From a virus (taxonomy: Duplodnaviria; Heunggongvirae; Uroviricota; Caudoviricetes), in the IMG/VR virus record IMGVR_UViG_2724679058_000003: DNA of 64,000 nucleotides. One strand, 5' to 3'. Below are positions 43,583 to 46,168 of this stretch, piece by piece. Within the stretch, counting starts at the first letter, position 1, and each line of letters begins with the position of its first letter. Below the pieces are notes generated by a model that saw nothing but the letters and a program-made list of their open reading frames with translations, was not told where the DNA came from and made no database searches. The position numbers were made by a program, and so were the translations under genes.

Positions 43583-44245
43583 ATGCTCGCCTGGAGGCTG
43601 AATTTGCAGCTGAGAATGAACATACCACCCAGGGCGACTAGGACTGTTTTTTGTGTCGGTAGCGGTCCTTCACTCACTCGTGAGGACTGTGCTGCTATAG
43701 AAAAAACTGGCTGTTCAATCATCGCGGTTAACAATTCCTGGCAGATGTTCGATGACATTTATGCCTTATACGCCGGTGATTTGTCATGGTGGAAGCAATA
43801 CGGTTCCACCATACCGGGAGGGAGGTTCCGCAAAGTGACAGCCAACCTGGCAGCGGCGAAATCATTTTCGTTGGAGTACAGGCGATATTGTGGACCGGCG
43901 GAAGGGGTAAATAGCGGCGCGCAGGCTATCAGTCTGGCGGCTGAATCAGGGGCTGAAGTAGTTGTATTAGTCGGCTATGACTGTTCTCTGCAAAACGGCC
44001 TTCATTGGCATGGGGCGCACCCTCAAGCACTACGGAATCCAACGCAGGTATCTATTTCAAAATGGCAACAGCAGTTCCTGGATACCCGCAAAAAACACGC
44101 AGATTTACATATTTTGAATGCAAGTAGGAGCAGTGCAATTCAATGTTTCCCAAGAATAAATTTAGAGGCAGTGATCGCGTTATTATCGTCGGCAGTGGCC
44201 CAAGCGCCGCAAACTTTGTTGCGCCGCGCGGAGTGCCGATTATAG
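43583..44245 (+). CDS. Rossmann-like protein, paralogue 1 (DUF115/MptE-like?)
   Basis: 220 aa; VFCVGSGPS, IIAVN, NSGAQAISLA, VVLVGYD. Confidence 0.5.
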   Translation: MLAWRLNLQLRMNIPPRATRTVFCVGSGPSLTREDCAAIEKTGCSIIAVNNSWQMFDDIYALYAGDLSWWKQYGSTIPGGRFRKVTANLAAAKSFSLEYRRYCGPAEGVNSGAQAISLAAESGAEVVVLVGYDCSLQNGLHWHGAHPQALRNPTQVSISKWQQQFLDTRKKHADLHILNASRSSAIQCFPRINLEAVIALLSSAVAQAPQTLLRRAECRL

Positions 44246-44769
44246 CGGTCAATGGGGCCATCGACTGGCTTAACCGCGCTTCTTATTTTTTCACACTTGA
44301 TCCATCGTCAGACAATATGCGGCGCGTTGGTCGTGGCCGCCGTCGCCGTGGTGTTTGTTATTGCATGGCACTACCCGATGTTAAAGAACGTGAAGTCAGA
44401 GATGGCGTTCTGTGCTTCCGTCGTGTGGCTGAACGCAGCACGGAGCCTAAAAATACGAATTCTCCCGAGTGGTGGGCGTGGCGCTGGTCCGCACATTTCG
44501 GCCTTTGCGAAGATGAGAATGAAATTGCCAGCGGCAATAGTGCATATGGTGCTCTGAACCTGGCTTTCCATATCGGATTCAAACATGTAGCCCTGGTGGG
44601 CGTTGACGCTACGCAAGAACCACGCGTTCACTCCGGCGGCACGCCAAAAAATCTAAGTCACCTGCCTTTGTTATTCCAGTCTGCGCGTGAACAGATTGAC
44701 GTTGTTTCATGCGGGAAAATGGGAGGTATTCCGCAGATGACTCTTAAAGAATGGCTGAAGAATACATGA
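44143..44769 (+). CDS. Rossmann-like protein, paralogue 2
   Basis: 208 aa; [30 protein letters not shown]; overlaps paralogue 1 by ~100 nt. Confidence 0.5.
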
Positions 44770-45443
44770 TGGCACCCACAATTTATCACCGTATCGACGG
44801 TACCAAATACAGGAATGTCTGGGTTGTTGGTGATCTGCATGGTTGCTACACCAGACTGATGTCCGAACTCCATCGTGTGGATTTTGACCCGGCGCAGGAT
44901 TTACTGATATCGGTCGGCGACCTTATCGATCGCGGTACTGAAAATGTCGAATGTCTGGAACTATTGCAGATGCCCTGGTTCAGGGCAGTGATGGGGAACC
45001 ATGAGCGGCTGATGATTGATGCGTTAAGTCCAGATGGCAACGTGAATAACTGGCTAATGAATGGCGGACAATGGTTCTTCATGCTGGACACTGATCAGGA
45101 AATATTAGCCTGGGCGCTGGTGGAGCTGGTAAAGCGTCTGCCCTATATCATTGAGTTGAACACCGGGCAAGAAACTATCGTTATAGCCCATGCCGACTAT
45201 CCGGATAATGAATACCAATTCGGTAAGGAGGTGCCGCTTTTCAACGTTGTCTGGGCGCGCGAGCGTATCAGTGATTCGATGGATGATATTGGTGGCGAAA
45301 TTTCGGGCGCAGATCGTTTTATCTTTGGTCACACTCCGGTGAAAAGCCCGAAGACATTCTGGAATCAGCAGTATATCGACACTGGTGCCGTATTTTGCGG
45401 AAACCTGACATTGATGAAAGTGAAAGGTGATGGTGCAGCATGA
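44751..45443 (+). CDS. Ser/Thr protein phosphatase (metallophosphoesterase)
   Basis: 230 aa; [19 protein letters not shown] motifs. Confidence 0.8.
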
Positions 45444-46168
45444 AGATTGCTTTAGTTTTTCGCTCTGGTGGTGACTATAACGCTTCCGATGTGCAGTGGC
45501 TGGTTAATCAACTGCCAAAAGGCTATGAAATTATTTGCCTGACAGACCTGAAGCGTTTACATGTACCTGGCGTCAAAGTTGTCCCATTGATCAACCAGTG
45601 GCAAAAGTGCCGTGGCTGGTGGGCGAAAATCGAGTTGTTCCGACCGGATATAACAGATGATCTGTTCTATCTGGATTTGGACACAGTTATTGCCGGTGAT
45701 ATACGCCCAATCCTTGAGAATCCACCAACCAGCTTCACCATGCTTAGGGATTTTTACCATCCACAATATCGTGGTAGCGGTGCCCTGTGGATACCAAATA
45801 GTGTAAAAGCGCATATCTGGAGTTCATTCTGGCAAGATCCGGAAGGTTGGATTTCTCGTTGTGTCACTACTGAGTGCTGGGGTGATCAGGGGTTCTTACG
45901 GAAGGTTATGGGCGATGATACACCAGCATTTCAGGATCTGTATCCAGGATGGTTTGTAAGTTACAAGGCCGATGTTGTGGAACCTGGTTCAAAATATGCG
46001 AGCGCGCGTTACTCCAGGGGGAATGGGGCATTACCAAAGGACTGCCGAATAATCTTTTTCCACGGCAAACCGCGACTCGCGAAGTGTCAGAGGATTGGCT
46101 TCCCCTTATTAGCTCGTTTTTTGAGCGAGAATCAGAATAATATTGCTCTAATAATTCCATATTTTTAA
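45440..46168 (+). CDS. Hypothetical protein with DxD-like motif (possible GT-A glycosyltransferase)
   Basis: 242 aa; [11 protein letters not shown]. Confidence 0.4.
46142..46158 (+). promoter_or_regulatory. C1-operator-like site, plus orientation
   Basis: ATTGCTCTAATAATTCC, 14/17. Confidence 0.55.

What the first reader, a model, noticed from the sequence alone, without database searches (positions are those of the whole stretch)
43583..46168. Accessory cluster: two Rossmann-like paralogues, a Ser/Thr phosphatase and a DxD-motif protein
Two tandem paralogues sharing VGSGPS, IIAVN and NSxxxAxxLA motifs are followed by a lambda-PPase-like phosphatase and a protein with a [11 protein letters not shown] motif. 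The block ends at an operator pair and hairpin. Nucleotide-sugar-handling enzymes next to a protein phosphatase suggest a host-modification or counter-defence module that profile searches could define.
Basis: inference. Interest (0 to 1): 0.5.

Follow-up and report, generated by a model that had tools for sequence, protein, structure and literature searches.

The report
Phage P1 glycosyltransferase and phosphatase operon
This is the long-catalogued, non-essential pmgN-pmgO-pmgP-ppp-pmgQ operon of a P1-like phage-plasmid: a portable trio of sugar-transferase-like genes with an unrelated lambda-type phosphatase gene inserted into it. Its sequence is ordinary, but its biological role has never been shown.

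Summary
The window is a P1-like phage-plasmid (98-99% identical to P1, P7 and RCS47). Positions 43583-46168 are P1 genes pmgO, pmgP, ppp and pmgQ, between C1 operators Op83 and Op86a/b.

PmgO, PmgP and PmgQ travel together in unrelated phages and in bacterial chromosomes. PmgO and PmgP occur once as a single fused protein. Ppp is absent outside the P1 lineage and sits alone in phage D6, so the proposed sugar-enzyme/phosphatase link is not supported.

The trio lies in late, lysis or head-neck operons, often beside sugar-type methyltransferases. In Pseudescherichia it is interleaved with Ig-domain adhesin genes. My best inference (about 0.45) is a glycan-building cassette acting on proteins, probably virion proteins. 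LPS modification is the main rival.

Published knockouts show no plating or antirestriction defect. The window's pmgQ carries a 1-nt frameshift.

The parts
43426..43442 (-). C1 repressor operator Op83 (Oppp / Op(hdm)), just upstream of the operon
   Evidence: Position-for-position alignment with the operator annotated in P1 AF234172. It has 4 mismatches to the operator consensus, so the 3-mismatch scan did not list it.
43486..43641 (+). pmgN (P7 hdmA): small protein of unknown function, GTG start preceded by GGGAG. The open frame extends up to 43444, as annotated in P7.
   Evidence: Matches phrog_2350, unknown function. Found only in P1-lineage loci.
43583..44245 (+). pmgO (P7 hdmB): Maf/MptE/sialyltransferase-fold protein, 220 aa. 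The true start may be Met12 at 43616.
44143..44769 (+). pmgP (P7 hdmC): second, distantly related Maf/MptE/sialyltransferase-fold protein, 208 aa. It overlaps pmgO by 103 nt.
44751..45443 (+). ppp: lambda-type Mn-dependent Ser/Thr protein phosphatase (PPP family metallophosphoesterase), 230 aa. A lineage-specific insertion in the cassette.
   Evidence: Pfam Metallophos E 9e-16. Matches 1G5B at E 1.5e-94 over residues 11-229, with GDLHG, GDLIDRG and GNHE present. Present only in P1-lineage loci and separately in phage D6.
45440..46168 (+). pmgQ (P7 hdmD): GT8-like GT-A glycosyltransferase with the D79-L-D81 motif. This copy has a 1-nt deletion near 46075 that replaces the last 21 residues and extends the ORF into the operator.
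   Evidence: phrog_1962 E 1e-118. Family profile against PDB: GT8 6MW5 E 9.4e-7 and 5GVV E 0.014. WaaJ hhalign E 2e-4. Frameshift shown. The exact protein is absent from the 15-billion-sequence collection.
46142..46158 (+). C1 operator OpmgRa (Op86a), overlapping promoter PpmgR of the next operon
46167..46194 (+). 11-bp hairpin followed by a T-run, lying between the two operators. A likely terminator of the pmgN-pmgQ transcript.
   Evidence: It fell below the G+C-pair requirement of the terminator scan.
46191..46207 (-). C1 operator OpmgRb (Op86b), inverted relative to OpmgRa

Best explanation
SHOWN. The segment is the pmgN-pmgO-pmgP-ppp-pmgQ operon of a P1-like phage-plasmid. The C1 repressor keeps it silent in the prophage state. 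It is bounded upstream by Op83 and downstream by a hairpin flanked by Op86a and Op86b. PmgO, PmgP and PmgQ form a conserved, horizontally mobile three-gene cassette. PmgO and PmgP have the Maf/MptE/sialyltransferase fold. PmgQ is a GT8-like enzyme with a DxD motif. Ppp is an intact lambda-type Ser/Thr phosphatase that was inserted between pmgP and pmgQ in the P1 lineage only.

INFERRED. During lytic growth the three enzymes assemble a short glycan from host-supplied activated sugars.
- PmgQ would act as a metal-dependent retaining transferase using a UDP-hexose.
- PmgO and PmgP would act as a pair, possibly a heterodimer, using a CMP-activated acidic sugar. The cassette carries no sugar-synthesis genes and was found only with LPS-bearing hosts, so CMP-Kdo is the obvious candidate donor.
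- The acceptor is most likely protein, meaning virion proteins in phages and Ig-domain adhesins in the chromosomal islands.
- The glycan would decorate or shield particles rather than being needed for assembly, which fits the lack of a laboratory phenotype.
- Ppp acts independently on phosphoproteins.

My confidence by layer: identity about 0.98, three-gene glycosylation cassette about 0.85, protein acceptor about 0.45, Kdo donor about 0.15.
For: Identity and regulation:
- 98.4-98.9% nucleotide identity with identical gene order to P1, P7 and RCS47, and the operators are annotated there.
- The same block lies on 542 plasmid records at 80% or more coverage.

Folds:
-.

The three genes form a cassette:
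- PmgP and PmgQ are adjacent in 28 of 28 diverse viral loci. PmgO is present in 23 of those 28.
- The trio also occurs in Alpha-, Beta- and Gammaproteobacteria, a Bacteroidota contig and jumbo phage XacN1.
- One 376-aa protein is a natural PmgO-PmgP fusion, followed directly by a PmgQ homologue.
- In P1 the pmgO and pmgP genes overlap.

Glycan chemistry:
- A TylF-type sugar O-methyltransferase domain is fused to the PmgQ domain in XacN1.
- FkbM-type, class I and Methyltransf_23 methyltransferases lie in or beside the cassette.
- Some versions carry an extra nucleotide-diphospho-sugar-transferase-like gene.

Late or virion context:
- HK97-like phages: TerL-portal-protease-capsid-[O]-Hc1-P-Q-neck-tail.
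- P2-like prophage: the cassette follows the portal gene.
- Lambdoid prophages and a podophage-like contig: between the lysis genes and terS or terL.
- P1 has an upstream late promoter, LPpmgL.

Protein acceptor:
- The closest structural or sequence relatives all glycosylate proteins or protein-linked glycans: Maf on flagellin, AgtA on Skp1, GlyE on the PsrP adhesin.
- In five diverged Pseudescherichia genomes the three genes are interleaved with an inverse-autotransporter adhesin and three other Big_1 proteins.
- Serratia has PmgO beside two Big_1 proteins.
- XacN1 has the trio beside a PKD-domain protein, and its virions are reported to contain at least two glycoproteins (PMC5852040).

Ppp is independent:
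-.
Against: - No experiment shows glycosylation of any P1 protein.
- The P1 virion proteome paper reports none, and the word stem 'glycos' does not occur in its text.
- Deletions have no phenotype.
- The window proteins score below Pfam's gathering threshold for PF01973.
- GT8 enzymes also build LPS cores, and PmgQ resembles WaaJ (E 2e-4).
- The adhesin association may reflect a single ancestral island rather than independent events.
- In two loci the cassette sits next to DNA polymerase or ribonucleotide reductase genes rather than structural genes.
- Protein-linked Kdo has no precedent that I know of.
Confidence: 0.45

Rival explanations
1. The cassette modifies the host envelope rather than proteins. 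It would remodel the LPS core, or another Kdo- or hexose-containing glycolipid, of the infected cell. This would mask or truncate the P1 receptor (the terminal core glucose), limiting superinfection and the loss of progeny on cell debris.
For: - PmgQ is GT8-like and aligns with the LPS outer-core enzymes WaaJ (E 2e-4) and WaaO (E 2.5e-3).
- PmgP and the KdoIII transferase WaaZ share the N-terminal SGP(S/T)...IIAVNG pattern. There are weak hhalign matches (E about 2e-3) and a faint precomputed WaaZ_KDO_III hit on the fusion protein.
- The cassette was found only with LPS-bearing hosts.
- It often lies next to lysis genes.
- That P1 adsorbs to the LPS core is my own knowledge, not tested here.
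Against: - The WaaZ relationship is not significant: hhalign probability 13-15%, and no family member hits the WaaZ model at E 0.01 or better.
- The operon is C1-repressed in lysogens, so it cannot give lysogenic conversion.
- Placement inside head-neck gene clusters and inside adhesin islands is not what an LPS enzyme would predict.
Confidence: 0.25
2. One reading: the sugar enzymes and the phosphatase form one integrated host-modification or counter-defence module.
For: - The genes are co-transcribed from one C1-controlled promoter in P1-like elements.
- The arrangement is conserved on 542 plasmid records.
Against: - Ppp is absent from every cassette outside the P1 lineage.
- Ppp occurs without the cassette in D6, and in lambda's nin region according to the PHROG name.
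- The deletion collection showed no change in antirestriction, and none of the four genes gave a plating defect when deleted or knocked down.
- No PADLOC matches.
Confidence: 0.07
3. PmgO and PmgP are not glycosyltransferases but MptE- or thiamine-pyrophosphokinase-like enzymes. They would transfer pyrophosphate from ATP to a small molecule or sugar, which PmgQ then uses or modifies.
For: - The only Pfam match is the family named MptE-like.
Against: - Bacterial and mammalian sialyltransferases also match.
- Weak sequence matches to Cst-II fall in the same register over the nucleotide loop and the NSG...D segment.
- The constant partner is a glycosyltransferase, and frequent partners are sugar-type methyltransferases.
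Confidence: 0.08
4. The cassette glycosylates phage DNA as an anti-restriction modification.
For: - Two loci place the trio beside DNA polymerase or ribonucleotide reductase genes.
- Phage DNA glycosyltransferases are a known class (title of bioRxiv 10.1101/2023.12.21.572611).
Against: - No base-hydroxymethylating enzyme accompanies the cassette in any locus examined.
- Most contexts are structural or lysis operons.
- The knockouts did not change antirestriction.
- P1 DNA is not known to be hypermodified (own knowledge).
Confidence: 0.03

Closest known systems
Bacteriophage P1 operon pmgN-pmgO-pmgP-ppp-pmgQ (P7 hdmA-hdmB-hdmC-ppp-hdmD), C1 operators Op83 and Op86a/b
   Same: Same genes, order, overlaps and operators at 98-99% nucleotide identity.
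   Different: The window copy of pmgQ has a 1-nt deletion that changes its last 21 residues. There are a few point differences in the promoter region.
Maf (motility-associated factor) flagellin glycosyltransferases, e.g. Magnetospirillum Maf, PDB 5MU5
   Different: Maf is about 630 aa with extra domains, while PmgO and PmgP are only the roughly 200-aa catalytic core. Identity is 16-20%. Maf uses CMP-pseudaminic or CMP-legionaminic acid (own knowledge). The cassette and its neighbourhoods contain no genes for making these, and to my knowledge E. coli K-12 has none.
GT42 sialyltransferases Cst-I and Cst-II of Campylobacter (source of the RefSeq and PHROG name 'alpha-2,3-sialyltransferase')
   Different: No significant sequence similarity (E 0.26-1.3). 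The name implies a donor, CMP-Neu5Ac, and a linkage for which there is no evidence.
GT8 retaining glycosyltransferases: AgtA (6MW5), GlyE (5GVV), LPS enzymes WaaJ and WaaO
   Same: DxD motif, a GDQ segment and a C-terminal HG-x-P-(R/K)-P motif. Profile E 9.4e-7 to 6MW5.
   Different: No Pfam Glyco_transf_8 hit. The protein is much shorter, about 230 aa. Donor and acceptor are unknown.
Bacteriophage lambda Ser/Thr protein phosphatase (NinI / orf221, PDB 1G5B)
   Same: Full-length orthologue with all the metal-binding motifs.
   Different: It sits inside a glycosyltransferase cassette instead of the nin region. It scores below the NCBIfam cut-offs for E. coli PrpA and PrpB.
Virion glycosylation by phage-encoded glycosyltransferases in mycobacteriophages (Freeman et al. 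2023, recalled from memory; cited indirectly in PMC11256854)
   Same: Non-essential phage glycosyltransferase genes proposed or shown to decorate capsid and tail proteins.
   Different: Different enzyme families and Gram-positive-type hosts. Nothing has been demonstrated for P1.
Adhesins with dedicated cytoplasmic glycosyltransferases (AIDA-I/Aah, TibA/TibC, HMW1/HMW1C; own knowledge)
   Same: In Pseudescherichia the trio is embedded among inverse-autotransporter and Big_1 adhesin genes.
   Different: Unrelated enzyme families. The association here is by gene neighbourhood only.

Membership tests
P1 (Punavirus) pmgN-pmgQ operon | Near-identical sequence and gene order, flanked by C1 operators Op83 and Op86a/b | tested here: met
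   98.4-98.9% identity over 3 kb to P1, P7 and RCS47. Operators located.
MptE-like / Maf (PF01973, formerly DUF115) fold family | Score above Pfam's gathering threshold (34.6 bits) | tested here: not met
   PmgO scores 23.4 bits and PmgP 21.1 bits. However, 38 of 42 and 53 of 65 family members match at E 0.01 or better, and the PmgO-PmgP fusion scores 44.6 bits.
MptE-like / Maf (PF01973, formerly DUF115) fold family | Three-dimensional fold matches solved members | tested here: met
MptE-like / Maf (PF01973, formerly DUF115) fold family | Catalytic activity, either glycosyl transfer from a CMP-sugar or pyrophosphoryl transfer from ATP | not testable with these tools
   Needs enzyme assays.
GT42 alpha-2,3-sialyltransferase (the database name for PmgO) | Significant sequence similarity to Cst-I or Cst-II | tested here: not met
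   Profile against PDB gives E 0.26-1.3. A single sequence gives no hit.
GT42 alpha-2,3-sialyltransferase (the database name for PmgO) | Catalytic histidine at the position equivalent to Cst-II His188 (recalled from memory) | tested here: inconclusive
   Invariant His141 and His143 in PmgO and His173 in PmgP lie after the G-x-D strand. No residue-level superposition was available.
GT42 alpha-2,3-sialyltransferase (the database name for PmgO) | CMP-Neu5Ac donor available, or made by neighbouring genes | tested here: not met
   No nonulosonate synthesis genes in any cassette neighbourhood examined.
GT8 retaining glycosyltransferases | DxD metal-binding motif in a GT-A core | tested here: met
   D79 and D81 are invariant in 29 sequences and align with the DxD of 6MW5.
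GT8 retaining glycosyltransferases | Significant profile match to a solved GT8 enzyme | tested here: met
   6MW5 E 9.4e-7 over profile positions 55-210, and 5GVV E 0.014.
GT8 retaining glycosyltransferases | C-terminal H-x-G-x-P-(K/R)-P-(W) motif (recalled from memory as typical of GT8) | tested here: inconclusive
   H208, G209 and P211 are invariant, and R212 and P213 nearly so, in the family. In the window copy the frameshift removes P213 and everything after it.
GT8 retaining glycosyltransferases | Pfam Glyco_transf_8 match | tested here: not met
   No Pfam family at E 0.1 or better.
PPP-family lambda-type Ser/Thr phosphatase | GDxHG, GDxxDRG and GNHE motifs, and full-length similarity to lambda phosphatase | tested here: met
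   GDLHG, GDLIDRG and GNHE are present. 1G5B matches at E 1.5e-94 over residues 11-229. Metallophos scores 59.3 bits against a cut-off of 21.5.
WaaZ (KdoIII transferase of the LPS inner core) | Detectable homology to E. coli WaaZ | tested here: inconclusive
   hhalign probability 13-15%, E about 2e-3. A faint precomputed hit on one fusion protein. No member hits the model at E 0.01 or better.
Phage virion-glycosylation systems | Virion proteins carry a glycan that depends on the phage genes | not testable with these tools
   Only correlative evidence: structural-operon location and reported glycoproteins in XacN1 virions.
Known anti-phage defence components (PADLOC) | Match to any PADLOC model | tested here: not met
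   No hits for the five proteins.

The most novel reading that the evidence does not exclude
The PmgO/PmgP pair transfers Kdo from host CMP-Kdo, and PmgQ adds a hexose, onto Ser/Thr residues of virion proteins. In the chromosomal islands the acceptors would be Ig-domain adhesins. Coliphage P1 and many prophages of Gram-negative bacteria would then carry a previously unseen protein-linked acidic glycan that shields or targets the particle. This would be the first virion glycosylation system in a classic coliphage and the first protein-linked Kdo.
Probability: 0.1. Interest if true: 0.75.

Novelty: already known. Interest (0 to 1): 0.35.

Why it matters
The sequence itself is a textbook phage operon, present on hundreds of P1-like plasmids, so the finding as written is not new. 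What remains open is the function. Four conserved, non-essential genes of the most widely used transducing phage have had only the label 'putative morphogenetic function' since 2004.

This analysis narrows the question. The unit to study is the three-gene pmgO-pmgP-pmgQ cassette, not the phosphatase. The cassette moves between very different phages and always lands in late or virion operons. It has also been recruited into bacterial adhesin islands. Together these observations turn 'unknown function' into a specific, cheap experiment: compare virion protein masses and LPS between wild-type P1 and the existing deletion mutants.

If virion glycosylation were confirmed, it would bear on phage immunogenicity, on phage stability, and on P1-derived delivery vehicles.

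Tried and rejected
- **Single-sequence searches.** PmgO, PmgP and PmgQ against PDB sequences gave nothing significant. The PmgP and PmgO profiles gave nothing significant either.
- **NCBIfam.** No model matched PmgN, PmgO, PmgP or PmgQ.
- **First hhalign run.** The comparison of the two family alignments was dominated by the fusion protein P0051 and did not test the core homology. I repeated it without that row.
- **First viral-contig scan.** It returned only P1-like loci. I repeated it with an alignment led by a distant member.
- **WaaZ / Kdo-transferase membership.** Only weak, non-significant signals, so rejected as a classification and kept as a lead.
- **afdb50 fold library.** Unavailable. 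The BFVD search returned only uncharacterised or MptE-like viral proteins.
- **PADLOC.** No hits.
- **Terminator scan.** It missed the terminal hairpin because the stem is A+T-rich. Folding shows it clearly.
- **Literature.** No paper in the library assigns a function to pmgO, pmgP or pmgQ. The 2004 P1 genome paper is not held.
- **Large unknown proteins beside the cassette.** BLAST among those in Brucella, Pseudescherichia, Serratia and XacN1 found no shared candidate acceptor beyond Big_1 domains.
- **Pantoea PmgQ homologue.** A solitary copy sits between lpdA and acnB and is uninformative.
- **PmgQ structure.** I did not model it. Both prediction jobs went to PmgO and PmgP because the PmgQ profile already matched GT8 structures.
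Full report
**What the locus is**

The 3-kb segment around the finding is 98.4-98.9% identical, over its whole length, to phages P1, P7, RCS47, SJ46 and relatives. The P1 annotation maps one-to-one onto the window:
- C1 operator Op83 (Oppp): 43426-43442, minus strand.
- pmgN: 43486-43641.
- pmgO: 43583-44245.
- pmgP: 44143-44769.
- ppp: 44751-45443.
- pmgQ: 45440-46168.
- Operators OpmgRa (46142-46158) and OpmgRb (46191-46207, inverted).

P7 names the same genes hdmA, hdmB, hdmC, ppp and hdmD, for 'head morphogenesis'. The block occurs at 80% or more coverage on 542 plasmid records, mostly from Escherichia and Salmonella. The finding is therefore an annotated operon of a P1-like phage-plasmid.

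**Checking the observation**

The operator pair is real. The C1 operator consensus, allowing up to three mismatches, matches 9 times in the window against 0.38 expected by chance. Between the two operators lies an 11-bp hairpin followed by a T-run. The whole element folds at -26.9 kcal/mol, z = -11.8. The consensus terminator scan missed it only because the stem is A+T-rich.

One detail needs correcting. Relative to P1, the window lacks one base near 46075 (CGACC becomes CGAC). This shifts the pmgQ frame after His-Gly-Lys-Pro-Arg, replaces the last 21 residues and carries the ORF into OpmgRa. The exact resulting protein is absent from a 15-billion-sequence collection. The window's PmgO is found on at least 1000 contigs, and its PmgP on one E. 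coli contig.

**The two 'paralogues'**

Pairwise BLASTP between PmgO and PmgP is barely significant (E 0.004 over 36 residues). I built family alignments of 42 and 65 sequences. After removing one fusion protein that had dominated the first comparison, the profiles align over 162-171 columns with 97.6-98.7% probability and E 3e-12 to 3e-15. They are ancient homologues, not recent duplicates.

- Then SteA, thiamine pyrophosphokinases and mammalian sialyltransferases.

The window proteins fall below Pfam's threshold for PF01973. However, 38 of 42 and 53 of 65 family members match it at E 0.01 or better.

The database name 'alpha-2,3-sialyltransferase' rests on fold only. Sequence matches to Cst-II are not significant (E 0.26-1.3), although they fall in the same register over the GxGPS loop and the NSG...D segment.

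**PmgQ and Ppp**

The PmgQ family (29 sequences) has these invariant residues: D79, L80, D81, W60, W61, K63, G148, D149, S174, K176, H208, G209 and P211. Its profile matches the GT8 enzymes AgtA (6MW5, E 9.4e-7) and GlyE (5GVV, E 0.014), with the DxD motifs aligned. It matches the LPS enzyme WaaJ weakly (E 2e-4).

Ppp aligns end to end with lambda phosphatase 1G5B (E 1.5e-94) and keeps GDLHG, GDLIDRG and GNHE.

**Which genes belong together**

I searched 28 diverse viral loci, one podophage-like contig plus 27 IMG/VR contigs, with HMMs of the four families.
- PmgP and PmgQ were both present in all 28.
- PmgO was present in 23. Two of the five without it are cut off by a contig end.
- Ppp was present in only six, all of them P1-lineage elements.

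The trio also occurs in the following:
- Prophages or islands of Pseudomonas, Enterobacter (P2-like), Citrobacter, Brucella, Serratia, Zhongshania, Brevundimonas and Commensalibacter.
- A Bacteroidota contig.
- The 385-kb Xanthomonas phage XacN1.

One 376-aa protein is a natural PmgO-PmgP fusion, and a PmgQ homologue follows it directly.

Conversely, P1's relative D6 carries ppp at 89.7% nucleotide identity among nin-like genes, with no cassette. The functional unit is therefore pmgO-pmgP-pmgQ. Ppp is a separate gene that was inserted into it.

**Clues to function**

Accessory genes:
- Class I methyltransferases lie inside the cassette in several loci, and a Methyltransf_23 gene follows PmgO in Hafnia.
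- An FkbM-type methyltransferase follows the cassette in the Bacteroidota contig.
- In XacN1 a TylF-type sugar O-methyltransferase domain is fused to the PmgQ domain.
- Some versions add a fourth gene resembling a nucleotide-diphospho-sugar transferase.
- No locus contains sugar-nucleotide synthesis genes, so the donors must be common host metabolites.
- Every host seen is a diderm with LPS. This fits CMP-Kdo as a donor but does not prove it.

Position in phage genomes:
- HK97-like prophages: directly after the major capsid gene, or interleaved with head-closure and neck genes.
- A P2-like prophage: after the portal gene.
- Lambdoid prophages and a podophage-like contig: between the lysis genes and the terminase genes.
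- P1: a late promoter, LPpmgL, lies upstream of the C1-controlled promoters.

Non-phage context:
- In five diverged Pseudescherichia genomes the three genes are interleaved with an inverse-autotransporter adhesin (IAT_beta plus seven Big_1 domains) and three other Big_1 proteins. Housekeeping genes flank the island.
- Serratia plymuthica has PmgO beside two Big_1 proteins.
- XacN1 has a 1088-aa PKD-domain protein next to the trio, and its virions were reported to contain at least two glycoproteins (PMC5852040).

The nearest characterised relatives of all three enzymes act on proteins or on protein-linked glycans. Maf acts on flagellin, AgtA on Skp1 and GlyE on PsrP.

**Interpretation**

The best-supported reading is a portable cassette that builds a short, sometimes methylated, glycan during lytic growth. 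The acceptor is most probably protein, namely virion proteins in phages. I put about 0.85 on 'glycan-building cassette' and about 0.45 on the protein acceptor.

The main rival, at 0.25, is remodelling of LPS or another envelope glycan. It is supported by the GT8/WaaJ resemblance, a weak WaaZ-like N-terminal pattern and the proximity to lysis genes. The WaaZ link is not significant.

A pyrophosphokinase chemistry for PmgO and PmgP cannot be excluded from fold alone.

DNA glycosylation is unlikely. No base-hydroxymethylating enzyme accompanies the cassette, and the knockouts did not change antirestriction.

**What experiments already say**

[quoted passage not shown] CRISPRi scored pmgO, pmgP, ppp and pmgQ as non-essential. 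It scored pmgN as essential, which conflicts with the deletion result (PMC10695390). No paper in the searchable library assigns a function to these genes.

**Verdict**

It is partly wrong: the phosphatase is not part of that unit, and a counter-defence role has no support. The locus is already known and annotated, so interest in it as a discovery is low to moderate. The residual value is a sharpened, testable hypothesis for a 20-year-old 'putative morphogenetic' label.

Noticed in passing
window 46070-46168: pmgQ has a 1-nt deletion relative to P1 (CGACC becomes CGAC). This shifts the frame after HGKPR, removes the near-invariant Pro213 and the native C-terminus, and extends the ORF into operator OpmgRa. 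The exact protein is absent from a 15-billion-sequence collection, so it is either a pseudogene allele or a sequencing error.
   Followed up: yes
L003:10001-11131 (protein P0051): A natural fusion of a PmgO-like domain and a full PmgP-like domain in one 376-aa protein of a podophage-like contig. It sits directly after the lysis genes and directly before a PmgQ homologue.
   Followed up: yes
L182:2241-15359 (Pseudescherichia; also L167-L171): A chromosomal island in which PmgO-, PmgP- and PmgQ-like genes are interleaved with an inverse-autotransporter adhesin (IAT_beta plus 7 Big_1 domains) and three other Big_1 proteins. It is conserved at 60-87% protein identity across five genomes.
   Followed up: partly
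L193:4324-10220 (Xanthomonas jumbo phage XacN1, ORF375-372): XacN1 carries the full trio. Its PmgQ domain is fused to a TylF-like sugar O-methyltransferase, and the next gene encodes a 1088-aa protein with a PKD domain. The XacN1 paper reports virion glycoproteins but attributes them to other glycosyltransferases.
   Followed up: partly
window 43583-43641 and 44143-44245: There are unusually long gene overlaps: pmgN/pmgO by 59 nt and pmgO/pmgP by 103 nt. Homologues and the low model confidence for residues 1-20 suggest PmgO may really start at Met12 (43616). The pmgO tail that overlaps pmgP lies beyond the conserved family core.
   Followed up: partly
window 42594-43432 and 47777-48283: The neighbouring 'putative morphogenetic' genes look enzymatic or regulatory rather than structural. 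PmgL matches DksA-like zinc-finger proteins (phrog_54). PmgM has a VRR-NUC nuclease domain. Pap matches the phosphatase domain of polynucleotide kinase-phosphatase.
   Followed up: no
L194:3447-4139 (phage D6): In P1's relative D6, ppp (89.7% nucleotide identity) sits among lambdoid nin-like small genes, with no pmgO, pmgP or pmgQ. This shows the phosphatase gene moves independently.
   Followed up: yes
L090:6857-7401: In one P1-related viral contig the PmgO homologue is split into two overlapping ORFs, an apparent frameshift. This is a second example of decay within the cassette.
   Followed up: no
window 42487-42505: The stretch equivalent to P1 late promoter LPpmgL differs from P1 by one base in its annotated -10 hexamer (ATTATT against AATATT). 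Operator Op82 at 42520-42536 is conserved.
   Followed up: no
PMC10695390 table (P1_gp087): CRISPRi scored pmgN as essential, whereas its deletion is viable. A polar or promoter-proximal effect of dCas12a at the start of the operon is a possible cause.
   Followed up: no
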